From Hypanus sabinus (taxonomy: Eukaryota): 64,000 nt of DNA. Positions 1 through 51,600 of this stretch are shown here, in pieces. Below the pieces are notes generated by a model. It did no database searches. It was not told the DNA's origin and worked only from the letters and a program-made list of their open reading frames with translations. Location of the stretch: contig NC_082712.1 of NCBI RefSeq assembly GCF_030144855.1, forward strand, positions 13,454,001-13,518,000. Reading direction: 5' to 3'. How positions within the stretch are numbered: position 1 is the first letter of the stretch; every line of letters starts with the position of its first letter. Made by a program: the position numbers and the translations under genes.

Positions 1-94
1 AAATGTCAAACGGGTTTTGTGGCTCCCAGTGTTTTCTTTTCTGTGGGAAACAGGTCCAAATGGCTCTTTCAGTGGTAAAGGTTGCCGGCCCCTG
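1..94 (+). mobile_element. 3' end of a hAT DNA transposon (second copy of the element at 48905-51591), cut by the window edge
   Basis: 91/94 nt identical to 51498-51591; ends in TIR GGTTGCCGGCCCCTG; followed by CCCTAAGC, a candidate 8-bp TSD with central TA. Confidence 0.92.
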
Positions 95-1212
95 CCCTAA
101 GCGCTGGTGAAATATAGATGGGGAATTATGGAACCCCTGTGGTAGGGTAGTCCACGTACACTGCTGTCTCTGAAGGGCAAGTGCAAACTTGACCATGACC
201 AAAACCCATTATTTATGTTTAAAACTGAACCATTGTGCTCTTTCATTCTGTTTGAACACTATTTCCGGGTTAGTTGCTACAGTTGGGGCTGTTAACCGAG
301 TCACTTTATTTACCTCTCGATAATCAACCTCCAACTACCATCTGGTTCCCTCACGGGCAATATGGGTGAGTTATTTGTGGAGGTTACTGGCCTCAGTACC
401 CCTTGTTGCACCAAACTCTGTATTCCCTTGCCTACATCTTCCTTTGCTTTTTTGGAAACTCATATTGGTTCGGTGCTTTGGGGTCTGGACCTTGGATGCA
501 CACTCTGCCGGCTATCTTTCCACAGTCATGCTTGTGTCTTGCAAATGCCCCCGAGTTCTGTGCAATAATTTACTGCACCATCTGATCATTGCTCATCTCC
601 CCCGGTTTTATCCACATTTCGTCCATTGTGCAGATTCTATCCAATATTCTCCTGCCGGGATCTGTATGTGGTGTATGTTATTCATGACAGTTGGCATCTG
701 CTAAATCATACAATTAACTGGATCAAAACAAAGCCCCACTTTGGCCAAGTAATCAGTCCCCAGTATGTGTTCCCGCTCCCTGGGTAATTCCACCAGCACT
801 GTTGAATGTTTCGATGCTATGTCTCCTATCCTTAATTCCAAAGTCACACTCACACGTCCCACTTGTGGATGTCTGAGAATCCAATGAGGATAACTCTACC
901 TTGTATCTCCCAATTTACGTTATTTACATTAGTGGTGTTGACGGTGGTTCGGGATCCTCCAGTGTCCCATAAAAAGGTAACAGGGTGGCCTCCGACCCTA
1001 CCAATCACTGGAGGTCTTCTGGCTTCATCCCACCTTGCGTCACACCCATGTTGGTGAGGCCTGACACCATCATTCTGGCTCAGGGTACAATTCCCTGGAC
1101 GGTGGTGTCTCTACCATGTTATTTTGTGGGCTCCATCTTTCTGGCCCCTCCAAGAGCAAACTGCATTGCTCTGCTCTTTCTCATCTCAGGTTTGGACACT
1201 CTCTCTTCCACA
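95..1212 (-). pseudogene. Endogenous retrovirus gag end, protease and RT N-half (degraded, frameshifted)
   Basis: Minus-strand translation gives protease VTFLWDTGGSRTTV (DTG at 966-958) and ILGTDYL, then RT motifs PNQYEFP, GVLRPVTSTNNSPILPVREPDGSWR, DYREVNK, NGFWS and TWTTLPQGFHNSPSIFHQRL (LPQGFHNSP at 145-119). Confidence 0.85.
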
Positions 1213-1219
1213 GTTTCAG

Positions 1220-2762
1220 AGAGACAGACAGACAGACATACTTTATTGATCCCGAGGAAAATTGGGTTTCGTTACAGTCACACCAACCAAGAACAGTGAA
1301 GAAATATAGCAATATAAAACCATAAATAATGAAATAAAAATAAGTTAATTATGCCAAGTGGAAATAGTTCCAGGACCAGCCTGTTGGCTCAGGGTGTCTG
1401 ACACTCCGAGAGAGGAGGTGTAAAGTTTGATGGCCACAGGCAGGAATGACTTCCTATGACGCTCAGAGTTACATCTCAGTGGAATGAGTCTCTGGCTGAA
1501 TGTACTCCTTTGCCTAACCAGTACATTATGGAGTGGATGGGAGACATTGTCCAAGATGGCATGCAACATGGACAGCATCCTCTTTTCAGACACCACCATC
1601 AGAGAGTTCAGTTCCACACTCACAACATCACTGGTCTTACGAATGAGTTTGTTGATTCTGTTGGTGTCTTCTACCCTCAGCCTGCTCTCTCAGCATACAA
1701 CAGCAAACATGATAGCACTGGCCACCACAGACTTGTAGAACATCCTCAGCATCGTCCAGCAGATGTTAAAGGACCTCAGTCTCCTCAGGAAATAGAGACG
1801 GCTCTGACACTTCTTGTAGACAGTCTTAGTGTTCTTTGACCAGTCCTGTTTATTGTCCATTCGTATCCCCAGGTATTTGTAATCCTCCACTATGTCCACA
1901 CTGTCCCCTTGAATGGAAGCAGGAGTCATCAGTGCCTTAGCCCTCCTCAGGTCCACCACCAGCTCCCTAGTCTTTTTCACATTAAGCTACAGATGATTCT
2001 GCTCACACCACATGACAAAGTTTCCCACTGTAGCCCTGTACTCAGCCTCATCTCCCTTGCTGAATCATCCAACTATGGCAGAGTCATCAGAAAACTTCTG
2101 AAGATGGCAAGACTCTGTGTTGTAGTTGAAGTCCAAGGTGTAGATGGTGAAGAGAAAGGGAGACAGGACAGTCCCTTGTGGAGCCCCAGTGCTGCTGACC
2201 ACTCTGTCTGACACACAGTGTTGCAAGTACTGTGGTCTGCCAGTCAGGTAATCAATAATCCATGACACCAGGGAAGCATCCACCTGCATCACTGTCAGCT
2301 TCTCACCCAGCAGAGCAGGGCGGATGGTGTTGAACAAACTGGAGAAGTCAAAAAACATGACCCTCACAGTGCTCGCCGGCTTGTCCAGCTGGGCATAGAC
2401 ATGGTTCAGCAGGTAGATGATGGCATCCTCAACTCCTAGTTGGAGCTGAGAGGCGAACTGGAGGGGGTCTAAGTAGGCCGGAGCTGCTCTGGAACAAGTC
2501 TCTCCATGATGTGGGAGGTCAATGCCACCGGTCTGTAGTCATTGGAGCCACTGGGGTGCGGCGTCTTCGGTACAGGAACTAGGCAGGACATCTTCCTCTG
2601 GAGACTCAGGCTCAGGTTGAAGACATGGTGAAGTACTCCACATAGCTGGGGGCACAGGCTTTGAGAACCCTGGGGCTGAAACCATGCGGGCCTGCAGCCT
2701 TGCTTGGATGGAGACGTTTCAGCTGTCTTCTCACCTGTTCAGCTGTGAAGCCCACCATGGTG
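1220..2762 (-). mobile_element. 5'-truncated Rex1/Babar-type LINE inserted into the ERV gag
   Basis: RT peptides MFFDFSSLFNTI, GAPQGTVLSPFLF, FSDDSAIVG, YKYLG; (TCTG)n-like tail at 1220; 7-bp TSD GTTTCAG at 1213-1219 and 2763-2769. Confidence 0.88.
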
Positions 2763-2769
2763 GTTTCAG

Positions 2770-3720
2770 GTGAGGGAGGGGTGTAGTCATGAGAGCAGGG
2801 TGGGGGGCTGTGAGGAGGGGTAGGAGAGGTATAGCATTTGAATATTCCACCTTCAGTTCTCCCTGTTCCATTTCCATTGCCCTTCCTTGCCCCTTGATAG
2901 GGTGGCAGGGAAGCCTTCGAGGTGTGTCCCCCACCCTCATTTCTCTAGACAGGTGCCCGACTTTTAACAAGCATCACCTTCCCATTAGGGAGTTCAGATG
3001 GTCTCTGTATCTCCTTTTCCCTCGCTCTACACATTTTCCTCAGTGACCGTGCCTCAGTATGTGTGGGTTCAGAAGGATCAAACATTTCCAGTGCCTTTTT
3101 AGATTCAACGGTATATTGAGACGCCAGTATCCACAACCGTCTAAATGGCCACACTCTACTGCTGTTCCTACACTCCTTGGAACACAGTCCATAAATGGGA
3201 AGCAAATGCAATGGGATGTTCCCCTCTCCTCCGGTAAAATCTGTCCAGTGCGTTGACTGGGTCCCCTCTGTTAACACCCTTAGCAGTCAATATTGCGTTC
3301 TTCTGTTCCCCACCATCTCACTGTAGATCCGGCAAAGCCGAGTGAATATTTGGATGGGACACATTATAATCAATCTCCTTTCCTTGAAGTTCTCTCTGAT
3401 GGCTAATTGCTTGGAAAAGATCTTGAGTATCGTCTCTGAGCACACGTGTCCTGATATCCTCAGCAATATCTTTAAGTTGCTGTACACTGAACAGTGTGGT
3501 GTATGTTACAGTCTGAGTTTGATTTGCTGTCCTGCTCCCTCCTCTCTGATAGTAACGAGGGGTGCCAATCGTGCAGACAGTAGCACCGGCTCCCGTTGGG
3601 AGGGTGTCGGTGGGAGTTCCTTGGGAAATGTTGTTTTGTAATTATCGTAACTGTACCCAGTAGCTTCTCCAGCTAAATCATGCCAATCACTATGTCCATA
3701 TTCATGTTCCCCCCGTTGGG
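2770..3720 (-). pseudogene. Endogenous retrovirus gag fragment (capsid region)
   Basis: Minus-strand peptide with ARLAPLVTIREEG and an MHR-like GEHPIAFASHLWTVF (3224-3180); same strand as, and collinear with, pro-RT once the Rex1 insert is removed; several stops. Confidence 0.62.
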
Positions 3721-5659: not shown

Positions 5660-6252
5660 TTCACAGTGGAGAGTATGTGGACTGGTCACATCATGACCTG
5701 GTATGGAAACCCCAATGCCCAAGAACCAAAAATCCTACAAAGAGAGCTGGGTACAGCCCCGTCCATCACAGGAGGTGCCCTCCCCACCATTGAACACATC
5801 TACAAGGAGCGCTGCCACAAGAAAGCAGCTTCCATCATCAAGGACCCCCAACATCCAGACCATGCTCACCTCTCACTGCTGCCATCAGGCAGGAGGTACA
5901 GGTGCCTAGGACCCACACCACCAGGTTCAGGGACAGTTATGACCTCTCAACGATCAGGCTCCTGAACCAGAGTGGAATGCTTCATTCACCTCAGCACTGA
6001 ACTGATTCGACAACTATAGACTCACTTTCAAGGAATCTGTAACTCATGTTCTCAGTATTACTTAACTCATTTTTTTGCCCAGTTTGTCTTTTTTTGCATA
6101 TTGGTTGTATGTCTGTCTTTGTTTGTGTGTAGTTTTTCATTGATTCTATTGATTTCTTTGTTCTACTGTGAATGCCTGGAAGAAAATGAATCTCAGGGTA
6201 GCGTCTGGCCACATATTCGTACTTCGACAATAAATTCACTTTGAACTTTGAA
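5660..6252 (+). mobile_element. Rex1/Babar LINE 3' fragment
   Basis: Peptide [12 protein letters not shown]...LLPSGRRYR, then a 3' UTR ending AATAAATTCACTTTGAACTTTGAA. Confidence 0.8.
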
Positions 6253-6699
6253 CCTCTAAGGAAGAGATCGATCAGTTAGGACGTGAAAGGACCTGTAGAC
6301 AAAGTTAATGAGCAAATGAGTTGTCTGGCTTGTGACTTACAAATAACAAAAATACCAATAAAAACCAGGCCGATTACAAATAATCAGAAGGGAACTGAAA
6401 ATCAGAAGAGAGACAGTAAGAGTTTACAGTATTCTTACTCTTCACAGACATCCATGAAAAAAACAGAAGAAGGAAATTATGTAAAATGTTAGCCCCCAAA
6501 GCCCCCCACCCCCTCTACTCCAAAGCAGCCACAAAACATCAACCCTTTCCCCTGTCACTTGTTCCAACAGGAAGGAACAGCCCTCAACAGTGGGATTAAC
6601 CCACTAAATGTGTGTCTTTAGAGTGTGGGAGGAAACTGGAGGAAACCCCCGCGGTCACGAGGCCAACGCAGAGTGGGAAGCGTTGCTCTCTTGTAAAAA

Positions 6700-8780
6700 G
6701 TGAAACAAAAACATTAGAAAGAGGTGGCAGAGGGTCGGAAGGTGTTGAATCATTGTGGATAGAACTAAGGAACTGCAAGGGTCAAAACGGCCTGATGGCA
6801 GTTGTATACAGACGCCCAAACAAAGGTAAGGACATGGCCTACAAATTACACTGGGAGTTAGAAAATGAATGCCAAAAGGGCAATGTTACAATAGTTATGA
6901 GGGAGTTTAATACGCTAATAGAGTGAGAAAATCAGGTTGGTGCTGGATTCCAGGAGGAGGGATTTCCAGGGTGCCTACGAGATGGCTTTTTACATCAGCT
7001 TGTCGCTGAGCCCACCAGAGGATCATCTATTCTGGATTAGGTATTGTGCAATGAACCAGAATTGATTGAGAGCTTAAGGTAGAAGAACCCTAAGGTACAA
7101 GTGATCATAATATAATCAAATTCACCCTGAAATTTGAGAAGAAGAGGTGGAAGCCAGATGTATCAGTATTCCAGTGGAGCAAAGGGGATTACAAAGGCAT
7201 GAGTAAGGAGATGGTCAGATTTGATCGGAAGGAGCTTAAGAAGGAAATTAGGAGAGCCAGAAGGGGCCATCAGAAGGCCTTAGCGGGAAGGATTAAGGAA
7301 AACCCCAAGGCATTCTACAAGTATGTGGAGAGCAAGAGGATAAGACGTGAAAGAAAAGGACCTATCAAGTGTGACAGTGGGGAATTGTGTATGGATCCAG
7401 AGGAAATAGCAGAAATACTTAATGAATACTTCAGTGTTTACTATGGAAAAGGATCTTAGTGATTGTAGTGATGACATGCAGCAGACTGAAATGATTGAGC
7501 ATGTAGATATTAAGAAAGAGGATGTGCTGGAGCTTTTGGAAAGCATCAAGTTGGATAAGTCGCTGGGACCAGACAAAATGTACCCCAGGCTACTGTGGGA
7601 GGCAAGGGAGTTGATTGCTGAGCCTCTGGCGATGATCTTTCAATCATAAATGAGGATGGGAGAGCTTCTAGAGGATTGGAGGGTTGCAGATGTAATTCCT
7701 TTATTCAAGAAAGCGAGCAGAGATACCACAGGAAATTATAGACCAGTGAGTCTTGGATCAGTGGTTGGTAAGCTGATGGAGAAGATCCTGAGAGGCAGTA
7801 TTTATGAACATTTTTATAAGTGACCTGGATGAGGAAGTGGAGGGGAGGGTTAGTAAATTTGCTGATGACTCAAAGGTTGGGGGTGTTGTGGATAGTATGG
7901 AGGGCTGTCAGATGTTACAGTGGGACATTGATAGGATGCAAAACTGGGCTGAAAATGGCAGATGGAGTTCAACCCACATAAGTGTGAGGTGGTTCATTTT
8001 GGTAGGTCAAACATGATTGCAGAATTTAGTATTAATGGTAAGACTCTTGGCAGTGTGGAGGATCAGAGGGATCTTGGGGTCCGAGTCCATAGGAAGCTCA
8101 AAGCAGCTGCGCAGCCGACTCTGTTGTTAAGAAGGCGTATGGTGTATTGGCCTTCATCAGTCATGGAAGTGAATTTAGGAGCCGAGAGGTAATTTTGCAG
8201 CTATATAGGACCCTGGTCAGACCCCCACTTGGAGTACTGTGCTCAGTTCTGGCCGCCTCACTGCAGGAAGGATGTGGGTACCATAGAAATGCTGCAGAGG
8301 AGATTTACAAGATTCTTACCTGGATTGGGGAGCATGCCTTATGAGAATAGGTTGAGTGATCTCGGCCTTTTCTCCTTGGAGCAACGGAGGATGAGAGGTG
8401 ACCTGATAGAGGTGTACAAGATGATGAGAGGCATTGATCGTGTGTGTGGGTAGTTAGAGGCTGTTTCCCAGGGCTGAAATGGTCGCCACAAGAGGACACA
8501 GGTTTAAGGTGCTGGGGAGTAGGTACCACGGAGATGTCAGGGGTAAGTTTTTTGCTCAGAGAGTGGTGAGTGTTTGGAATGGGCTGCCAGCAACTGTGGT
8601 GGAGGCTGATATGATAGGGTATTTGAAGAGGCTTTTAGATAGGTACAAGGAGCTTAGTAAAATAGAGGGCTATAGGTAAGCCTAGTCATTTCTAAGGTAG
8701 GGATATGTTCGGCACAACTTTGTGGGCCGAAGGGCCTGTATTGTGCTGTAGGTTTTCTATGTTTCTATGTTTCTACAATT
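6700..8780 (+). mobile_element. CR1 LINE ORF2 fragments through the 3' end
   Basis: [45 protein letters not shown] peptides with frameshifts and internal deletions. Confidence 0.9.
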
Positions 8781-33600: not shown

Positions 33601-36600
33601 TCTCTCTATCACTGCCTCTCTCTCTCCCTCCTCTCTCTATCACTGCCTCTCTCTCTCCCTCCTCTCTCTTTCACTGTTTCTCTCTATCTCACTCTCTCTC
33701 ATTCACTCTCTCACACTCATTCACTATCTCTCTCTGACTCTCTCATTCACTCACTCACATACACTCTCACTATCTCTCTGTCCCCAGACTATTCGATGAA
33801 TGGTTGGACAATGTCCGGCGCTGATGAGGTCTCTGCGGTGGAAGGAGCCTCCGCCGTGTTACCGTGTACTTTCACCCACCCACCTCCTGATGTCGCCCTG
33901 AACGGCTCCGTGATCTGGAACAAGACCGAACCAGGTGCTACAAAACCGGTGTTTAAGTGCACATATCCCGGTTCCGGCCCCTCCGGGTGCGATACAACGA
34001 CACAGGAGGCTGGAGGAGGGCGGTTCGGATTCGTGGGGAACCTCAGTCGGAGAGATGCCTCGATAATGGTGGAGCCTCTGAACCGGAGTGACGGTGGTCG
34101 GTATCGGTGCCGGGTGGAGCTCAATGTTAACAGCTTTCAAACGGTGGTTCCAACAGATCTGTCTGTGAGAGGTGAGGACCGATGTTTAAGCATTGAGTTG
34201 TAAAACTACACTAATCATTTCACATTTTATCTCACTGAAAACTCATTTTATTCATAATGTACAAGTATATTTTGCAGGATGATCATGTCAAATAGATGTG
34301 ATTGTCATGTGCACTAGCACATAGAACAACAGCACCGTACAGGCCCTTCAGCCCACAATGTTGTGCTGACCCTTAAACCTGCTCCAAGATCAATCTCACC
34401 CCCTTGCCTCCCACATACCCCGCCATTTCTATAACATCCGTGTCTCTAAGAGTCTCTCCCCACCNNNNNNNNNNNNNNNNNNNNNNNNNNNNNNNNNNNN
34501 NNNNNNNNNNNNNNNNNNNNNNNNNNNNNNNNNNNNNNNNNNNNNNNNNNNNNNNNNNNNNNNNNNNNNNNNNNNNNNNNNNNNNNNNNNNNNNNNNNNN
34601 NNNNNNNNNNNNNNNNNNNNNNNNNNNNNNNNNNNNNNNNNNNNNNNNNNNNNNNNNNNNNNNNNNNNNNNNNNNNNNNNNNNNNNNNNNNNNNNNNNNN
34701 NNNNNNNNNNNNNNNNNNNNNNNNNNNNNNNNNNNNNNNNNNNNNNNNNGCTGCCATTTCAGTCAGCAATGAAGGGCCTCCATCTCTGGCAGCATTCAGG
34801 GCTTCCTTCATCGTGTCAGTAGCTTCCTCTCGGTTTTCACTGCTGTCAGTCATACAATTCCCGAGTGGGACTCAGGAATACCGTCACACTCAGATGTCGA
34901 AGGATTCTCCATTGCTGTTTCCATAACAACACTGTTTTACCCGTCAGGGTTGTTACCCTGAGCTGAACCCCCGAACCTGGAGGATCAGTGATCCTCTCTT
35001 ACAGAGAATATAGAAACAGAAATCTACAGCACATTCCAGGCCATTCAGCCCACAATGCTGTACTGACCATGTAACCTACTCTAGAGAGATTACCTCTTTC
35101 TTTTTCAATCTTTTTATTATTTTTTATAAAAAAAAACAAAACATAATATTATGTTAAATAGGTTATGAATACAATAGATTTGAAATTAAATTAGTAACAA
35201 GATAACAATATCTTATTAAACTATCAGCGAAAAAAGATCGTACAATAATCAATCTAATCTACATTGATTATACATGAAAAAGATTAAAAATAATCATCAA
35301 AAGAAAAAAAAGTATAAAATACAAGAAAAAATGTATATTTAAGAAAATAATGAAAAAAAAATAAACCTAAACTAACATGGGCAATAATAATAGTTTATAT
35401 GTATATGATAGTGTCAGAAAACTCCGGAACTCCATACCAGAACAAGAATAATAAGAATAAAGGTCCGGAAGAAGCCAAATTAATTCATATGAAAGTGTCG
35501 AATGAATGGTCCCCAAGTTTCTTCAAATTTAATTGATGAATCAAAAATAGTACTTATAATTTTCTCTAAACTTAAACAAGAAATAGTTTGAGAGAACCAC
35601 TGAAATGTGGTAGGAGGATTTACTTCTTTCCAATTTTGTAATATAGATCTCCTGGCCATTAATGTTACAAAGGCAATCATTCGTCTGATTGAAGGGGAGA
35701 ATTGACTATCATCTTCATTTGGTATACCAAAAATTGCAGTGATAAAATGAGGTTGTAAATCAATATTCCAAATTGAGGAAATGGTAGCAAATATGTCCTT
35801 CCAATAGTTATGTAAAGTAGGACATGACCAAAACATGTGGGTCAATGAAGCCACATCTGAATGACATCTGTCACATTGAGGGTTAATATGAGAATAAAAC
35901 CGAGCAAGCTTATCTTTAGACATATGAGCTCTATGTACAATTTTAAATTGTATTAAAGCATGTTTAGCACATATAGAAGAAGAATTAACCATTTGTAAAA
36001 TTTTTTCCCATTTTTCCATTGAAATATTGTATTGAAGTTCTTTTTCCCATTCCTGTTTAATTCTACCCGATACCTCTGGTTGTATTTTCATAACCATATT
36101 ATAAGTAAGAGGCACTAATCTCTTCTGACAGGGATTTAAAGTAAAAATCATATCTGAAAAATCTATCAAAGTTGAATTAGGAAAGGATGGTAAAACTTTA
36201 TGCAAAAAGTTTCTAATTTGTAAATATCTAAAAAAATTAGATTTAGGTAATTTAAATTTGTTAGAAAGTTGATCAAAAGACATCAAACTACCTTCAGAAA
36301 AAAGATCACAAAAACATATTATACCTTTCCTTTTCCATATGCTAAAAGCTTGATCTATTAAAGAAGGTTTAAAGAAAAAATTAAGATAGGGCTATCAAGA
36401 ACAAAGTTTTTTTAGAGTAAAAAATTTACGAAATTGAAACCAAATTCGTATGTATGTTTGACAATAGGGTTAGATATCTGTTTATTAAGTTTAACTAAAT
36501 CAACAGGGAGAGAAGAACCAAGAACAGAAAATAGAGAATATCCTTGTGTATCATTACATTCTAAATTTACCCACTGTGGGCACAATGGTAAATCTAAATC

Positions 36601-39600
36601 TAATTTCCAGTATAATAAATTCCGAATATTATTCGCCCAATAGTAAAATCTAAAATTGGGTAAAGCTAAACCACCATCTTTTTTAGATTTCTGTAACTGT
36701 CTTTTACTTAATCTGGGGTTTTTATTTTGCCACACAAATGAGGAAATTTTGGAATCAATGCTAACAAAAAAAGACTTAGGAATAAAAATTGGTAAGGCTT
36801 GAAATAAATATAAAAATTTCGGTAAAATCATCATTTTAACAGCATTGATCCGACCAAACAATGATAAGGATAAAGGAGACCATCTAGTAGTAAGTTGTTG
36901 AATTTGATGAAGCATAGGTAAAAAATTCAATCTGAATAAATCTTTATATTTCTTGGTAATTTTTATACCTAAATAAATAAAATTGTCAGTAACAATTTTA
37001 AATGGTATCCTGTCATTCAGTAAAGTTTGTGCATTTAAAGGGAAGAGTTCACTCTTATCCAAATTTAATTTGTAACCAGAAAAACTACCAAATTGAACCA
37101 ACAAGGATAGAATAGCGGGAATAGAATTATCAGGATCAGAAATATATAACAACAAGTCATCAGCATAGAGCGATAACTTGTATAATTTCTCATTACGGGT
37201 AATACCAAAAATATTAGGGGATTCACGAATAGCAATGGCTAAAGGTTCTAATGCAATATTAAATAATAAAGGACTTAAGGGACAACCTTGTCTCGTACCA
37301 CGAGATAATTGAAAAAAAGAGGATCTATAATTATTCGTAAGGACAGAAGCAACAGGTTTATAATATATTAATTTAATCCATGATATAAAATTAGAACTAA
37401 AGTTAAAATGTTTCAAGGCATTAAATAAGTATGTCCATTCAACTCTATCAAAAGCTTTTTCAGCATCTAATGAAATAACACATTCTGGGGTTGTGGATGA
37501 GGAAGTGTAAATTATATTGATCAATTTTCTAACATTAAAAAAGGAGTATCGGTTCCTAATGAAACCAGTTTGATCTCCTGAAATAATCTGTGATAGTACC
37601 TTTTCTAACCTAATAGCTAAAATTTTTGTAAGAATCTTAGAGTCTACATTTAGTAACGATATAGGGCGATAAGATGCACATAAAGTAGGATCTTTATCTT
37701 TTTTAAGAATTAAAGAAATAGTAGCTTCATAAAAAGACTGGGGTAGTCTCTTCTTAATAAATGCATCATTAAAGATTTCACATAACCAAGGGGAAAGCAA
37801 AGAAGAAAAAGTTTTAAAAAATTCTATAATATAACCATCGGGGCCAGGAGCTTTCCCTGAATTCATCGATGAAATAGCCTCTCCTACCTCCGCCATAGAA
37901 ATAGGAGCATCAAATAAACTTCGATCTTCATCTGTCAGTTTGGGAATATTCAAATTGTTAAAAAAATTATCCATCATAGACATATCACCATCAAATTCTG
38001 ATTGATATAAAGATTTATAAAAATCTTGGAAAGTATTATTAATTTCTTTATGATCAATAGTCAGATTACCGTCTTGTTTACAAATTTTAATAATTTGTCA
38101 CTTAGTCGAAATAGCTTTTAATTGATTAGCTAACAATTTACCAGTTCGATCACTATGAATATAAAATTGAGCCCTGGTCTTAATTAATTGATTCTCAATT
38201 GAAGAAGATAACAGTAAGCTATGTTCCATTTGCAGCTCAACTCTCTTCTTATAAAGTTCCTTGGTAGGAGTAACGGAATAAATCTTATCAATTTCTTTAA
38301 TTTTATCCACCAATAAAGCTATATCTAAATATCTTTGTTTTCTTTTCCCAGCAGAATGTGAGATAATTTGTCCATGAATAAAAGCCTTAAAAGAGTCCCA
38401 AAGTATTCCTCTGTCAATCTCTTCGGTATAGTTTGTTGAAAAAGAGAGATTACCTCAGGGCTCTTGAACTCAATCCCACAGCTGATGAATGCCAGTACAC
38501 CAGACACCTTCTTAACACCACTGTCAACCTGTGCAGCAGCTTTGAGTGTCCTATGGACAGAGTCCCCAAGATCCAGCTCATCCTCCACACTGCCACCAGT
38601 CTTACCATTCATATATTCTGTATTCAAATTTGACCTACCAGAATGAATCACTTCACACTTATCTGGGTTGAACTCCATCTGTTCTACACACCCTCCACTC
38701 TGTGTGTAATGAACCTGCCTCTGACCTCTGACATCCCCCCAATACTTTCCAGGAAAAGTCTCTGGCTGTCTGCTCGATTATGCCTCTTATCATCTTGTTC
38801 ACCTCTATCAAGTCACCTCTCATCTTTCTTCACTCCCAAGAGAAATTCTCCAGCTCGCTCAACCTTTCCTCATTAAACATCCTCTCTGGTCCAGGCAGCA
38901 TCCTGGTCGATCTCCTCTACATCCTCACGAAAGCTTCCTCATCCTTCCTGTAATGAGGTGAGTGGAACTGAACTTACTTGCTGCTGCAGGGATGATTTTC
39001 ATTGCATGTCTGCCTACGTGTCTGCACAGGTACAGTGAAAATCCAGTTGCCGTAGCAACACAGGCACAGAGCGTTGCATCAGAAAAGCAGCAATCAAGGT
39101 CAAGTTTATTGCCATCTGACTGTACACAGATACAGAACGTCAAGGTGTCTTGTACATCAGTCAATGAAAGTAAGCATGCAGGTACAGCAGGCAGTGAAGA
39201 AAGCTAATGACATGCTGGCTTTTATAACAAGAGGAATTGAGTATAGGAGTAAAGAGGTCCTTCTGCAGTTGTACAGGGCCCTGGTGAGACCTCACCTGGA
39301 GTACTGTGTGCAGTTTTGGTCTCCAAATTTGAAGAAGGACATTCTTGCTATTGAGGGAGTGCAGCGTAGGTTCACAAGGTTAATTCCCGGAATGACGGGA
39401 CTGTTATATGTTGAAAGATTGGAGTGACTGGGCTTGTATACACTGGAATTTAGAAGGATGAGAGGGGATCTGATTGAGACATATAAGATTATTAAGGGAT
39501 TGGACATGCTGGAGGCAGGAAGCATGTTCTGGCTGATGGGTGAGTCCAGAACTAGAGGCCACAGTTTAAGAATAAGGGGTAGGCCATTTAGAACTGAGAT

Positions 39601-42600: not shown

Positions 42601-45600
42601 GTTCAGTGTAGATGAAGATACAGATGAAGATGAAGATGAAGTACAGATGAAGATCATGTTCATTGTCGTCTGAGTGTACATCTCCACAACAAAATGTAAC
42701 AGTGTTCCTCTGGATCACGGTGCACCCAGAAAACATCTACAGTCTCACATCACACACAGCTCATAATGCAAAATATTCCCTCAGCTGAGTTAATAGGTTA
42801 GTGACTAATGCCATTACACAGGACTGACTGGTGTTGTTATACTGTATTGATCAGTATTATTACTCTGTATTGATTAGTGTTGTTTCAGTACAGTGACTAG
42901 TGTTGTTAAACAATACTGACTGGTGTTGTTTCATTGTGGTGATTGTGTTGTCACACTGTACTGATTAGTGATATCACACTGTACAGATCAGTGTTGTTAC
43001 ACTGTACTGATTGGTGTTGCTGCAGTGTATTGATTTGTGCTGTTTCCCTGTAATGGCCAGTGTTACACTGTACTGGTCGTTGTTGTTAGACTGTACTGAT
43101 TGGTGTTGTTACACTTCACTGATTAGTGATGGTGTCAATTGGTTCAACAACCAAATGATTGAAGGGAATTAGCTGTTCCTGAACGTGGTGGTGTGAGATT
43201 TAGGCTTCTTGATCTCCTGCCCGATGGGACTGATTTATGTTCTAAAGAGTTTCCCTAGTTTGAATGGACTTTAATGAGTGAGACACATGTGGGGCCGTTT
43301 TCATTCAGGAGGGTGCTGTGGGGAGTTTTTATTATTTTGTTAGCTGGAAATTTTGTCAGTGTTAAACGTTTTTGCTGAGGGTTAACCGATTTATTCTGGC
43401 ACCTGTCCTTCCCTCAGCTCCCAATGAGAGTGTCTCTGTGATGACTGGAACTGAGGGAGCTTCGGCCACGTTACCCTGTGTGTTCACACGGCCTCGGCAG
43501 AGCCTCACCGCACACACGGTGACGTGGATGAGGAAGGATCCCTACCGAATCATCGTCACATTCAGGCACCATGGAAATGGATCGTGGGTAGCGGAAAACG
43601 GAGTGACTCGGTACGAGCTCGTCGAGGACCTAGAGCTGGGAAGCGCCTGGATCAGGATAAAGCAGCTGAGAGTGGAGGACAGTCACAGCTACCTGTGTCT
43701 GGCTGAGTTCAGGAACATGAAGCATGATTATTCATCCGACAGAGAGCACATCACACCTCCATTTATACATGTGTTCCAGAGTGAGATCCGGTTGCAGGTC
43801 AGACCAGGTAAGAAATCATTGACACATTCTGCAGGGCATGGGGAGGGTTTTGGGGGGGGGGTGGGGTGGGGGGTAGCCTGCTACCATTATCCTTCCTCTA
43901 ATCAACCCCACCCCCGGGTTTATCTGTCTGTCCCCGAGTGAGATCTGACTGTAGATCAGACCCGGAAAAGAACCCGTCACCACATTCAAGTTCAAGTTTA
44001 ATTGTCAATCAGCCACACGTGCGTACAGCAAAACAAAACAGTGTTCCTCCAGGGACAAGCTGTAAAGCAGAGTAGCAACAGCACACAGTACACATTGTTA
44101 TGATGGCAGAAAAGCATACAGTCACAAAAAGACATAATATTGCCCAAGTTCCTGAGTGGTCTGGATTGGAGCTGGATGGTAGATTGGATATTGTCCTGGT
44201 CCAGCTTGTCTCTCACTAAGTGAACACTGGGGGGCAGCACTGAGCAAAAGAGGAAGGCAGCACCGATGGGAGTGGCCTGTCCCCAACCCACGACGGACTC
44301 CAGCACGTTCACAGAGGCCTCTGCTCTCTCCCACACCATCTCGGCATCTTCTGCAGTGTTCAGGGATGGGTCAGAACCTCCAGCACCCACTGTATTCTGT
44401 GTCCAGACTCTGGGGATGAATGGTATATCGGCCACTCCCAGCCTCAGCTGGTGATGAGTTCCATTTCCCCACCACAACTCCATCTCAGACGGTCCCTCAC
44501 ACAGGGCGGCCCCCAGATTTCAACGGGCCCCCTGGCGGGGCCTTGCCTGAGCCTGGGAGGAATGAGTGGAGTTCTAACGGAGGATCAGGAATCTTCCCAG
44601 AGAAGATGCACACTCAGCGTTTCAGGAAGAGCTTCTTCCTTCCTGCTGTTTTCTGAATGGACAATCAGAAAAGTGAGGGCCATCTCACTTTTTTCCCTAT
44701 TTTTCCCTCTTTTGTGCTACTTATTTAATTTAAAATTATACATGTAGGTATATATTTCTTATTGAAATTTACAGTTTTTTAATTAATATGTATTGCAATG
44801 TATAACGGGGTGTCAGGGTGAAGATACGTCTTTACCAAAGGAGGTGTAAGACACTCCTTCCCTCCACTAGTCTTCACTTTACCCTTGGGCGAGGTGTAGC
44901 CCCTGCTTCGCCCCTGATCAGGGTCACGTGAATCCATGGGATCAGGTGGTGGATGGTTGTATGAGCAGCTGGTGCAGATCACAAATTCTGGTTATGTGAC
45001 CACTGACACCAGGCAGACAATCTCTGAAGATTATTGACAATGGCTGGGCTCACCCATCCCGGACAGACACTGCTCAGAAGAAGGTGATGGAAACCCCTTT
45101 TGTAGAAAAATTGCCAAGAACAATCATGGTCATAAACAGGAAAATATCTGCCGTTGCTGGAAATCCAGAGCAACACACACAAGATACTGGAGGAGCTCAG
45201 CAGGTCGGGCAGTGTCTATGGGGAAAGGATCAAAGGTTCATTTTATTGTCAAAGTTTGCATGTAGAATACAACTCTGATATTCATCTTCTCCAGATAACC
45301 ATGATATCCAGATAAACCATGGGATTCATTACAAGAAAAGACATCAATACCCCCACACGAAAAGGAAAAAGAAAAATCTCGCAAACCTCAAACCCCCTCC
45401 CCGTCCCCCACCTCCCTCCCTCGCACAAAAGCCAACAGATCGCCCACCTGGAAGACGATCGTCAGAAGATCGAAACCCTCAAGCCCCCAACCCCTCCCTC
45501 TCAAAAAATACAGTGCTGACAACACCAAACCCAACACCCTCTCCCCACACAGATCACCCACACAGAACAGTCAACAGGAACATCAGACACCAAACCCTAA

Positions 45601-48600: not shown

Positions 48601-51600
48601 GTTAGTGGAGAGGTTGTGGAGGCAGATGTTCATAAAACCTCAGACAAAGATAGGTTGAGCATGGTGTGACTTGTATCCTGAGCTGAGTATATGTTGAATC
48701 ATTGTGGAAAGAGCTAAGGAACTGCAAGTGTCATAAGACCCTGATGGGAGTTGTATACAGACCCCCTGAACAGTAGTAAAGATGTGGTCTTCAAATTACA
48801 ACGGGAGAAAGAAAATGCATGTGACAATAATCACGGGGAATTTCAATGTGCTGGGAGATTGGGAAAATCAGCTTGGTGCTGGATTACAGGAGGAAAGTCT
48901 AGAGCAGGGGTCGGCAACCCGCGGCTCCGGAGCCGCATGCGCCTCTTTCATCCCTGTGCTGCGGCTCCCTATGGCTTTGGAAAATAAATGATGAGTATTT
49001 AATTAAAATGTATTTTATGTTAGTTTGTTAGTTTTTGAAATGTAATTCTAAATTCGAAGATTATGGTGAACTTTTACAATCTAAATAAAACGTGTTTTTT
49101 GTCGCTATTAATATAAGTCAGCACGGCCAATGCCTGACACCCGCTAGTGCGCGATTTCTTTAATTTTTCGATCGAAGGTAGGCTAACTATGGAGAATTCT
49201 AAAAAAAGAAAAGTGACTGAAGAAAACAGAACTTTTAATGATACGTGGACAGATTCATTTGCTTTCACTGCTGACGAGACTGGTTTACCGGTATGCTTAA
49301 TATGCAATGAGAAACTAGCAAACAACAAAAAGTCAACAGTCGCAAGACATTTCCAGAATAAACACGCAGCCTTTGCTCAAAAATATCCGGATGGAGATGA
49401 GAGAAAAAAAGCCGTTTCAGAACTGATGTGGAAGGTTGATCCGAGCAAAAATCATTTCAAGAAGTGGATGATGTCTGAAAATCAATGACATATGCTAGTT
49501 TTGTTGCCGCTCAGGAAATAGTCAGGCACAGGAAGCAGTTTACAGATGGCGAATATATAAAAGAATCTTTCATTAAGATTTCAGAACATCTATTCACGGA
49601 CTTTAAAAACAAGAGTGAAATTGTGCAGAAAATCAGGGATATGCCCCTCTCTGCAAAGACTGTCAAAGACAGAACCATAAAAATGGCAGAAGACATCAGA
49701 AGACAGTAAATTAAAGACATCAATTCAGCTGTGGCCTACTCGATTGCCTGTAACGAGTCTAAAGACAAAGGTGATATTGAACAAATAGCGCTGTTCTGCC
49801 GGCATATAAACTCTGCCGGGCCACAGGAAGAAATGATTGAGTTGATACCTCTAAAAGACCAAACACGGGGGGAGGACATCTGTGAGGCTGTCTTGAATTG
49901 TTTAAGAGCCAAAGTAATAAAGACCACCCACCTGGTGTCAGTAGCTACTGATGGGGCACCGAATATGACGGGAACGCACAAGGGATTTGTGGCTTTACTG
50001 CAGAAGTCACTGGACAGAAAGCTGCTGAGTTTTCACTGCATCTTGCACCAAGAGGCACTGTGCGCTCAAACATTTCCTCCGAAATGCACAGAAGTAATGG
50101 ATGTTGTCATTCAGATTGTCAATAAAACAATGGCAAAAAGTTTAAATCACCGTCAATTCCGTTTGTTACTGGACGAGCTGGAAAGCGCATATTCTGATCT
50201 CCTGCTGCACAACAAAGCCCGGTGGCTGTCAAGAGGGGAGGTGCTGAAACGCTTTGTCGCGTGTCTGGAAGAAGTGAAAACTTTCCTGGGCCGCAAAGGT
50301 CTCACCTTTCCTGAGCTGGAACAGCCAGAGTGGCTGGAAAAGCTACACTTCATGGTAGACATGACAGCGCACCTGAACACGCTAAACACAGCTCTTCAGG
50401 GGAAAGGACGCACAGCCCTGCACATGTTGGAGGATGTTTTGGCATTCCAGCGCAAGTTGACAGTGCTTGCCAGAGATTTACAGAAAGGCACATTGTCTCA
50501 CTTCCCCAATTTGAGAGAGTTCAAACAAGCTCACGACATGATAAATTCAGAGTATTTACATTCTGCAATCAATGCAATGCAAACATCGTTTGGGAAACGC
50601 TTCTGTGAGTTCAGAGAGGTAAAAAAACACATTATCCTTCCCGGTCACTCCCCTAAGCATCGATCCATCCCACTGAATACGACTGCATTGGCAGGTGTGA
50701 GTCAACCTGATCTTGAGATGGAACTGGCCAACATAGCCGACAAAGACATATGGGTGTCCAAGTTTAGACGCTTGACAGCAGACCTTGAAGATGTTGCCCG
50801 TCAGAAGGCCGTTCTTGCTCAGAATCACAAATGGAGTGATATTGAAAACCTCCCCAAGCCGGACAAACTTGTGTTGGAAACATGGAATGCTATCCCCGAC
50901 ATTTATGTAAACATTAAAAAGTATGCGCTTGGTGTCCTGTCGATCTTTGGATCCACATATGTGTGTGAGCAGGTGTTCTCCAACATGAACTTTATTAAAA
51001 ACAAACATCGCGCACGCCTCACAGATGACAGCTTGTGATCCTGTGTAAAGATGAAGGTGATGTCATACAGCCCTGATGTGCAGGCGCTGTGCGCTGAGGT
51101 CCAGGAGCAGAAATCCCATTAACCAAGTATGATAAATATTTTAATTGCCTATTATTTTACGTATATTCATATTTTTTCATTGTTCAGTGAAATAGTCCTT
51201 TTATTTTTCAGGTTGACAGCTGGCTGATGTTATTTTTGGTTTGCTGCTGGCGGACAATTTAAGTTCAGCATTTTTCATAAATACAAGAAGGACTCAAATA
51301 GACATTGATTATTTTACTTAAAAGTAAACTTCAACCCAACGTCTTTTTTTCGGAGTTCAAAATGTTTTTGTTGCATGCAGAAATGTAATTTCATTTTCTC
51401 TGCAGGAGTTCATCGATTTCATAAATGCAACACATTATAGTTTGCTTATACATAGCATAAAGGCAAAAAAACGTTGTATGCACTATTATTTCATTTTAAA
51501 TGTCAAACGGGTTTTGTGGCTCCCAGTGTTTTCTTTTCTGTGGGAGACGGGTCCAAATGGCTCTTTCAGTGGTAAAGGTTGCCGACCCCTGGTCTAGAGA

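What the first reader, a model, noticed from the sequence alone, without database searches (positions are those of the whole stretch)
95..3720. Foamy-like or loki-like endogenous retrovirus reassembled from under two insertions
Seen: minus-strand gag (MHR-like GEHPIAFASHLWTVF), protease (FLWDTG) and RT (QY..P, GVL.P..S..NSP..PV..PDG.WR, DYREVNK, NGFWS, WTTLPQGFHNSP) in the correct order. None appears in the ORF track because the pieces lack Met starts. Established: prototype foamy virus has WDSG in protease and PDGRWRMVLDYREVNK, NGFWAHP, WTRLPQGFLNSP in RT, and foamy-like and lokiretrovirus lineages are known from fish. Inference: this is a deep-branching spuma-related ERV of a cartilaginous fish, a poorly sampled lineage, rather than a gypsy element.
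Basis: partly seen in the sequence, partly recalled or inferred. Interest (0 to 1): 0.7.

Follow-up and report, generated by a model that had tools for sequence, protein, structure and literature searches.

The report
Snakehead-grade fossil retrovirus, not foamy
This is a real but dead retrovirus fossil, cut by two later transposon insertions, likely of the snakehead-retrovirus/ERV-L grade already known in sharks rather than a foamy or loki virus; a related envelope gene elsewhere in the genome is intact and possibly kept by the host.

Summary
Window 95-3717 (minus strand) is broken retroviral gag-protease-RT. A Rex1/Babar-type LINE (about 1216-2829) sits in the gag zinc knuckle and a hAT transposon cuts RT. 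It is one insertion, copied about 12 times with a roughly 100-kb unit.

Fuller dispersed copies are about 8.5 kb: LTR, tRNA-Asn primer site, gag (coiled coil, MHR pattern, CCHC), pol (tether plus RNase H, integrase), env, LTR.

The label fails. RT lies inside Retroviridae (100/98), outside loki and gypsy. AU tests reject grouping with foamy (p=0.014) and loki (p=0.029). RT identity is 59% to frog ERVs, 54% to snakehead retrovirus, 37-40% to foamy. A Cys-His box is present and the foamy PPT/LTR motif is absent. Best filed under clade Huo/class III, known and abundant in cartilaginous fish; deep support is weak, and no fish or shark foamy-like sequence was in the tree.

Two extras: the integrase leans towards loki (86/93, unstarred), and env looks paramyxo/pneumovirus F-like (weak). 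A sister element on C28 keeps an intact 733-codon env beside a decayed pol, with pN/pS 0.25-0.33 against one public contig: a candidate captured gene.

The parts
1..94 (+). End of a hAT-type DNA transposon remnant (2,687 bp, mostly before the window) inserted in RT; terminal inverted repeat 80-94
   Evidence: Spin-doc zinc finger E 4e-7 and hAT dimerisation domain E 0.002 in L011; inverted repeats and 8-bp target duplication (window 95-102 = L011 7400-7407)
95..470 (-). Reverse transcriptase, N-terminal part up to LPQGF; several stops and frame switches; cut by the hAT before YVDD
   Evidence: groups with the other copies of the family 100/98
471..1069 (-). Aspartic protease (FLWDTG about 975-958) and PR-RT linker, broken
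   Evidence: Asp_protease_2 E 0.0015; 77-79% amino-acid identity to the open frames of L027
1070..1215 (-). Gag C-terminus after the knuckle, ending in a TGA in frame with pol (1072-1070)
   Evidence: in-frame TGA in 5 of 7 copies where the junction motif was found
1216..2829 (-). 5'-truncated LINE of Rex1/Babar type (type recalled from motifs) inserted in the gag zinc knuckle, microsatellite tail at about 1216-1240
   Evidence: RVT_1 E 2e-12 and ALKBH8_N-like C-terminus E 3e-12; junctions; shared by 10 of 10 array copies examined, this one included
2830..3717 (-). Gag capsid/nucleocapsid region: MHR-pattern motif about 3233-3192 and first cysteine of the knuckle at 2836-2834
   Evidence: 68-79% DNA identity to 9 dispersed copies; zf-CCHC E 1e-8 to 2e-9 in L027 and L014
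3834..4073 (.). 31-bp tandem array where the gag N-terminus, leader and 5' LTR would lie; these parts are absent from the window
   Evidence: no LTR or leader hit in the window

Best explanation
The stretch is a dead copy of an LTR-gag-pol-env retrovirus family, cut by a LINE and a hAT transposon, and likely belongs to the snakehead-retrovirus/ERV-L grade (clade Huo, class III), nearest to frog and coelacanth ERVs annotated 'NYNRIN-like'. Shown in other copies: about 820-bp TG...CA LTRs, polypurine tract, tRNA-Asn primer site, Gag with coiled coil, MHR pattern and one CCHC knuckle, protease, YVDD RT, tether plus a second RNase H, H2C2 integrase, and an env with polybasic cleavage site, hydrophobic segment and transmembrane helix. 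Inferred life cycle: Gag-Pol made by reading through the in-frame TGA, priming on tRNA-Asn, env from a spliced RNA, and entry by a paramyxo/pneumovirus-F-like fusion protein. History: germ-line invasion long ago (LTR divergence 0.06-0.11 in three other copies), decay, two transposon insertions, an inverted partial duplication, then passive multiplication with a roughly 100-kb host unit that carries a B7-like IgV exon. The window copy has no function of its own (inferred).
For: RT tree of 68 rows: inside Retroviridae 100/98; outside loki (98/99), gypsy (100/99) and gamma/epsilon (100/99); in a 90/85 group with frog, coelacanth and two unnamed Pol proteins; beside SnRV and ERV-L-like rows at an open fork. 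AU rejects +foamy (p=0.014) and +loki (p=0.029) on a 30-row tree. RT identity: frog 59, coelacanth 57, SnRV 54, ERV-L-like 39-44, foamy 37-40, loki 36-39, gypsy 24-29%. Domains, LTR pairs, primer site against host tRNA-Asn genes. CCHC intact in 5 of 9 dispersed copies plus one variant; in-frame TGA in 5 of 7. Array: 12 listed near-full matches at 97-100% (11 on C25, 1 on C2488), many about 100 kb apart, and both insertions in 10 of 10 examined. Clade Huo is defined as related to SnRV, ERV-L and class III (PMC6001957, PMC8922424, passages); coelacanth ERVs are mostly SnRV-like (PMC4977317, passages).
Against: The Huo-like grouping has support of only 29 in the quick tree, and a sister pairing with SnRV alone is borderline rejected (p=0.049). 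The tree holds only two mammalian foamy viruses: no fish FLERV, no shark CmiFLERV or frog XtrFLERV, no Odin, no class II. Among solved structures the best RT and RNase H matches are foamy, though no SnRV-like structure appeared in those lists. The tRNA-Asn primer site and a 4-bp target duplication (1 of 2 copies read) are shared with some foamy-like elements. Integrase and tether score higher to loki than to SnRV. The F-type env call rests on low-confidence models (pLDDT 43 and 40) and mostly non-significant matches. The host class is inferred, not shown.
Confidence: 0.75

Rival explanations
1. It is a basal foamy-like ERV of the shark/frog FLERV type (CmiFLERV/XtrFLERV) that kept a zinc knuckle.
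For: Shark FLERVs exist and cluster with a frog element (PMC5512871, passages), as this family clusters with frog Pol proteins. tRNA-Asn primer site as in salamander NviFLERV-1. Best PDB matches of RT and RNase H are foamy. Feline foamy Env ranks third in the viral fold search, E 0.0012.
Against: AU p=0.014 against grouping with two mammalian foamy viruses. Cys-His box present, GGGTG junction absent, no room for accessory genes, no Spuma_A9PTase hit. Tether score to foamy is the lowest of all labelled groups (52-53 bits).
Confidence: 0.1
2. It marks a distinct transitional lineage (shark, frog, coelacanth, turtle) that pairs a retroviral RT with a loki/CGIN1-type integrase, a little-decayed tether and an F-type env, and merits its own clade rather than 'SnRV-like'.
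For: Integrase tree groups the family, the frog/coelacanth/turtle rows and loki (86/93), apart from SnRV, foamy, ERV-L and gamma/epsilon. Integrase scores 132-136 bits to loki against 90 to SnRV; tether 119-125 against 84. Pairing with SnRV alone is borderline rejected. Loki integrase is reported closest to CGIN1 (PMC7947760).
Against: The branch is unstarred, includes one row labelled gypsy, and the outgroup is not one clade. Slowly evolving lineages can look alike by shared ancestral states. Compatible with the best explanation, since clade Huo is broad.
Confidence: 0.3
3. It is a lokiretrovirus, filling the reported gap in cartilaginous fish (0 of 6 genomes).
For: Dual RNase H, coiled-coil Gag N-terminus, F-like env layout and loki-leaning integrase; loki absent from 6 chondrichthyan genomes screened (PMC7947760 supplement).
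Against: RT, the defining character, excludes it: loki is a separate 98/99 clade, AU p=0.029, identity 36-39%; the family has LPQGF where published loki RTs have CPFGY or LPFGY.
Confidence: 0.04
4. It is a Ty3/gypsy or epsilon-like element.
For: Strong RT_RNaseH (gypsy-like tether) hits, E 1e-19 to 1e-25; the RT thumb/tether best matches MLV among solved structures.
Against: A second RNase H follows the tether and an env follows integrase; RT is outside gypsy and outside the 100/99 gamma-epsilon clade.
Confidence: 0.02

Closest known systems
Snakehead retrovirus (SnRV) and SnRV-like ERVs, including elephant shark CmiERV lineage I (PMC4422223); clade Huo / class III (PMC6001957)
   Same: Highest RT identity among labelled viruses (54%); shared RT motifs; tether plus RNase H; reported in cartilaginous fish
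   Different: Not resolved as sister to SnRV (AU p=0.049); integrase nearer loki; about 8.5 kb with no accessory genes seen, against 11.2 kb with accessory frames for SnRV (PMC12193657, passages). CmiERV-I itself was not compared at sequence level.
Frog and coelacanth ERV Pol proteins annotated 'NYNRIN-like' (P0001, P0003, P0004, P0037, P0039)
   Same: Best named matches in every Pol domain tested; 90/85 group in the RT tree
   Different: Only 54-59% RT identity; their gag and env were not examined
Foamy viruses and fish/amphibian FLERVs (PMC5210030, PMC5512871)
   Same: tRNA-Asn primer site (minority state there), 4-bp target duplication in one copy, RNase H likeness, probable F-type env
   Different: Cys-His box and MHR pattern present, GGGTG junction absent, gag stop in frame with pol, no accessory genes, RT grouping rejected
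Lokiretroviruses (PMC7947760)
   Same: Dual RNase H, well-kept tether, integrase affinity, coiled-coil region, env with polybasic site and F-like layout
   Different: RT lies inside Retroviridae, not sister to it; no PF00523 hit
Captured env genes: syncytins and teleost captured env clades (PMC12813294, abstract start and a blank term search)
   Same: The C28 sister env is intact beside a decayed pol and shows excess synonymous change
   Different: Likely cartilaginous-fish host and probable F-type fold; expression and function not shown

Membership tests
Foamy viruses / FLERVs | RT groups with foamy viruses | tested here: not met
   AU p=0.014. Only two mammalian foamy viruses were in the trees.
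Foamy viruses / FLERVs | RT groups with fish, shark or frog FLERVs | not testable with these tools
   No stored sequence could be labelled CmiFLERV, XtrFLERV or teleost FLERV; none found in the supplements searched as text
Foamy viruses / FLERVs | Gag lacks Cys-His boxes (PMC5210030) | tested here: not met
   CCHC intact in 5 of 9 dispersed copies, one more with a single change; zf-CCHC E 1e-8
Foamy viruses / FLERVs | GGGTG motif at the PPT:LTR junction (PMC5210030) | tested here: not met
   Absent in 2 of 2 junctions read cleanly
Foamy viruses / FLERVs | Spumavirus A9 protease (PF03539) | tested here: not met
   No hit in protease frames; feline foamy control 298 bits. Divergent fish FLERVs might also miss this model.
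Foamy viruses / FLERVs | Accessory genes between env and 3' LTR | tested here: not met
   In L028 the env frame ends directly before the polypurine tract (translations printed)
Foamy viruses / FLERVs | pol expressed separately from gag | tested here: inconclusive
   In-frame TGA between gag and pol in 5 of 7 copies points to readthrough; no transcript data
Foamy viruses / FLERVs | Primer tRNA-Lys, or Asn in a minority | tested here: met
   tRNA-Asn site; not exclusive to foamy elements
Lokiretroviruses | RT in the loki clade, sister to all other retroviruses | tested here: not met
   (p=0.029)
Lokiretroviruses | Tether plus second RNase H | tested here: met
   shared with all retroviruses
Lokiretroviruses | Env similar to paramyxo/pneumovirus F (PF00523) | tested here: inconclusive
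   No Pfam hit. F proteins head the fold lists but weakly: best PDB E 0.046; two viral-library hits at E 2e-4 and 4e-4, one unnamed and one a Canya virus glycoprotein
Lokiretroviruses | Integrase of loki/CGIN1 type | tested here: inconclusive
   86/93, unstarred; scores; no CGIN1/NYNRIN gene in the tree
Clade Huo / class III (SnRV- and ERV-L-related) | RT inside Retroviridae, outside gamma/epsilon, foamy and loki | tested here: met
   class II not sampled
Clade Huo / class III (SnRV- and ERV-L-related) | Supported clade with SnRV and ERV-L | tested here: inconclusive
   One side of a branch with support 29; sister pairing with SnRV alone p=0.049
Ty3/gypsy (Metaviridae) | Single RNase H and RT in the gypsy clade | tested here: not met
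Epsilon-like ERVs | RT in the gamma-epsilon clade | tested here: not met
   Outside the 100/99 branch

The most novel reading that the evidence does not exclude
The family belongs to an undescribed shark-frog-coelacanth retroviral lineage that joins a retroviral RT to a loki-type integrase and an F-type (paramyxo/pneumovirus-like) envelope, and the host has captured a sister element's envelope (G000:C28:118004210-118006408) as a working gene: a captured F-type fusogen in a cartilaginous fish.
Probability: 0.35. Interest if true: 0.75.

Novelty: new member of a known kind. Interest (0 to 1): 0.42.

Why it matters
The window element is an ordinary dead fossil of a kind already counted in the thousands in cartilaginous fish. 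It does not extend foamy or loki host range. Its value is comparative. If the F-type env and loki-type integrase hold, F-like fusion proteins span loki, foamy and this class III grade, which bears on the open question of which envelope and integrase the first retroviruses had. The intact sister env makes a second question testable: whether sharks or rays, many of them live-bearing (own knowledge), have captured a retroviral fusogen. My searches listed no such report, but the main survey of vertebrate co-options (Wang and Han 2020) was not held and may already list it.

Tried and rejected
Lokiretrovirus: my first reading from the domain layout; dropped after comparing RT with the published loki rows and the trees.

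Viral contig scan with the RT: 5 pattern matches, none confirmed. PF00523 search of the genome: 0 matches under a stricter first look, and nothing rang in the controls, so uninformative. Env profile against long proteins: none among 7,993 candidates. Env against PDB sequences: only weak gp41 stem/TM likeness, E 0.07-0.1. Protein atlas: no usable hit. VIA-align wide search: only helical bundles, best Z 8.1. The second model (post-cleavage part) was no better, best E 0.41.

No chondrichthyan-named Pol appeared among the 36 and 120 listed RT relatives. No run on record as RNA holds the intact env. The repeat at 1214-1220 and 2763-2769 is not a target duplication, since the LINE frame continues to about 2830. 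An immunoglobulin-cluster reading of the array was dropped: the V exon best matches CD276 and no recombination signal was found. CmiERV-I could not be compared through motif searches of its supplement. Earlier findings of this scan: nothing in three look-ups. Three rows I labelled epsilon-like fell with gamma; this does not affect the placement.
Full report
Observation. Window 95-1215 hits stored Pol proteins at E 1e-23 to 6e-6, against 0.014 at best in 20 shuffles. The inner insertion is a 5'-truncated LINE (RVT_1 E 2e-12; Rex1/Babar type by recalled motifs) spanning about 1216-2829; about 20 bases of the host element are missing at the junction. It lies inside the gag zinc knuckle. The second insertion is a 2,687-bp hAT remnant with terminal inverted repeats and an 8-bp target duplication; it ends at window 94 and cuts RT before YVDD.

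Genomic setting. The window lies on C25 of a 4.04-Gb genome. A DNA search scored 40 of 1,793 candidates and listed 43 matches: 12 near-full copies at 97-100% (11 on C25 between 11.6 and 13.5 Mb, one on C2488), some partial ones, and dispersed copies at 79-85%. Both insertions are present in 10 of 10 array copies examined, this one included, and many neighbours lie 98-111 kb apart. The array is therefore one old integration multiplied by host duplication. The window also holds an IgV exon best matching CD276. The 10 kb before the window carry the RNase H end, integrase, env and 3' LTR of the same element, plus an inverted 90-93% duplicate of gag-PR that lacks the LINE. The 5' LTR, leader and gag N-terminus are absent from the window.

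Family anatomy. Nine dispersed loci were fetched, 20 kb each. Gag and pol pieces lie 18-25 bp apart in 9 of 9. Three loci show LTR pairs at 84-91% identity around an element of about 8.5 kb; K2P distances are 0.06-0.11. With the rates assumed in PMC10699275 (0.5e-9) and PMC4422223 (2.2e-10) this gives about 60-110 or 140-240 million years, a rough range for those copies only. LTRs run TG...CA; one of two copies read has a 4-bp target duplication; the primer site matches tRNA-Asn genes of this genome. Pfam on 75 natural frames finds zf-CCHC, aspartic protease, RT, RT_RNaseH (tether), a second RNase H, H2C2 and rve. The knuckle is intact in 5 of 9 dispersed copies; a TGA separates gag from pol in frame in 5 of 7 copies where the junction was found. 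That TGA-CGG is a readthrough signal, and that the Q-x3-E-x4-F-x2-RL pattern is the MHR, are recalled.

Placement. Two protein searches gave 147 stored Pol proteins. I labelled P0043 as SnRV and P0063 and its kin as loki by eye against data set S2 of PMC7947760. The foamy rows carry source names; gamma, epsilon, ERV-L and gypsy labels are mine, from motifs and source names. A careful tree of 68 rows (65 of the 147 proteins plus three family rows, the window copy read with X at breaks) puts the family inside Retroviridae (100/98), outside loki (98/99), gypsy and gamma/epsilon (100/99), in a 90/85 group with frog, coelacanth and two unnamed proteins, beside SnRV and ERV-L-like rows at an open fork. 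On a 30-row tree AU rejects family+foamy (p=0.014) and family+loki (p=0.029). Family+SnRV alone is borderline (p=0.049) and the broad Huo-like set has support of 29. So 'not foamy, not loki' is tested, while 'clade Huo' is the best fit rather than a shown clade. Fish, shark and frog FLERVs were not available; that is the main gap. Foamy markers listed in PMC5210030 (no Cys-His box, GGGTG junction) fail.

Results against a simple SnRV label. Integrase scores 132-136 bits to loki, 90 to SnRV and 81-88 to foamy; the tether 119-125, 84 and 52-53. The integrase tree (42 rows) groups the family, frog/coelacanth/turtle rows and loki at 86/93, unstarred, with one gypsy-labelled row inside and a broken outgroup. 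Foamy proteins are the best solved matches for RT and RNase H, MLV for thumb and tether.

Envelope. No Pfam family matches significantly. The cleavage site is followed by a hydrophobic segment, long helices, a cysteine-rich region and a transmembrane helix about 400 residues later, far longer than a gamma-type TM (recalled). A search of 1.84 billion representatives gave 14 homologues; 10 were looked up, 7 carry names, all sharks of four species. This is the only support for the host class. Models are poor (pLDDT 43 and 40). Even so, the first 10 PDB ranks for the full model are all pneumovirus F chains over about 420 columns (best E 0.046), with measles F and foamy Env further down. The viral library lists an unnamed protein (2e-4), Canya virus glycoprotein (4e-4), feline foamy Env, paramyxovirus and baculovirus F, and also walleye epsilonretrovirus Env. 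F-type is likely, not shown. Foamy Env sharing a core with paramyxo/pneumovirus F is reported in PMC11468914 (passages).

Side finding. An env search listed 150 of 151 matches, among them seven related loci on C28 at 117.6-118.4 Mb, 40-55% amino-acid identity to this family. All seven lie behind a decayed pol. One keeps a 733-codon frame with signal peptide, polybasic site and TM, and a splice-acceptor-like site just before the ATG; the other six are broken, with pN/pS 0.51-0.91 against it. No gag, RT or LTR-like repeat was found upstream in the four flanks tested. One contig of run X1 (organism A; RNA is a guess) covers the frame from 6210 to 8096 without gaps, at depth 29.5 against 3-4.5 on the pol remnant; contig depth is a poor measure of expression. 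Of 43 differences counted, 40 were shown: 20 synonymous codons, 18 non-synonymous, no stop; pN/pS 0.25-0.33, p 4e-5 to 7e-4. Runs under three organism labels hold half or more of its words. This fits a captured gene but rests on one contig, and 1 intact copy in 7 is also what late decay would leave.

Literature seen. PMC7947760: parts 1-3 of 4 and supplement parts 8 and 68 plus term searches. PMC4422223: part 1 of 2 and supplement term searches. Passages only: PMC6001957, PMC5512871 (plus supplement term search), PMC5210030, PMC11089739, PMC4977317, PMC10699275, PMC12193657, PMC11468914, PMC12440569, PMC8922424, PMC9447858, bioRxiv 2023.10.26.564294. PMC12813294: abstract start and a term search with no hits for shark terms. 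Not held: Wang, Chen and Cui 2023 (title only) and Wang and Han 2020; their supplements may bear on novelty. SnRV-like ERVs in elephant shark and 2,843 clade III loci in 6 chondrichthyan genomes show the kind is known.

Verdict. Real; a new member of a known kind; the foamy/loki label is not supported. Interest 0.42, lifted by the integrase and envelope leads and the candidate captured env.

Noticed in passing
L045:6210-8408 minus (G000:C28:118004210-118006408): Intact 733-codon env of a sister ERV beside a decayed pol, in an array of seven copies of which six are broken; pN/pS 0.25-0.33 against a gap-free contig of run X1. Candidate captured F-type envelope.
   Followed up: partly
window 43366-43938 (+): IgV exon best matching CD276/B7-H3 (E 1e-10); likely the host gene of the roughly 100-kb repeated unit on C25 (11.2-13.5 Mb).
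   Followed up: partly
L011:4864-6701 (+): Inverted duplicate (90-93%) of the window's gag-PR-RT start together with the 31-bp tandem array, lacking the LINE; no match to the RT palm, thumb or tether was seen at this locus.
   Followed up: partly
L028:700-1600 and L013, L020, L025: Several copies lack the cleavage-site/fusion-peptide part of env, as does the named shark protein P0148: a possible internally deleted subfamily.
   Followed up: no
L026:5010-5040, L014:5175-5200: Four bases separate the LTR end from the primer site, as also seen by eye in the published Loki-Bsp sequence.
   Followed up: no
G000 C1442, C1020, C310, C2701, C2552, C236, C2354, C733, C447: Nine matches with the same length and near-equal scores on separate contigs suggest a second duplicated array of this family.
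   Followed up: no
window 35483-38454 (-): AT-rich LINE with long open frames (561 and 303 aa; RVT_1 E 5e-40, zf-RVT), probably young.
   Followed up: no
window 49138-51035 (+): Second Spin-doc zinc-finger hit followed by a 442-aa frame, probably another hAT-type remnant.
   Followed up: no
P0160: A horn shark protein annotated as an fbxo15 isoform ends in an env stem and TM of this type (weak Baculo_F hit, E 0.001); gene-model fusion or exonised env.
   Followed up: no
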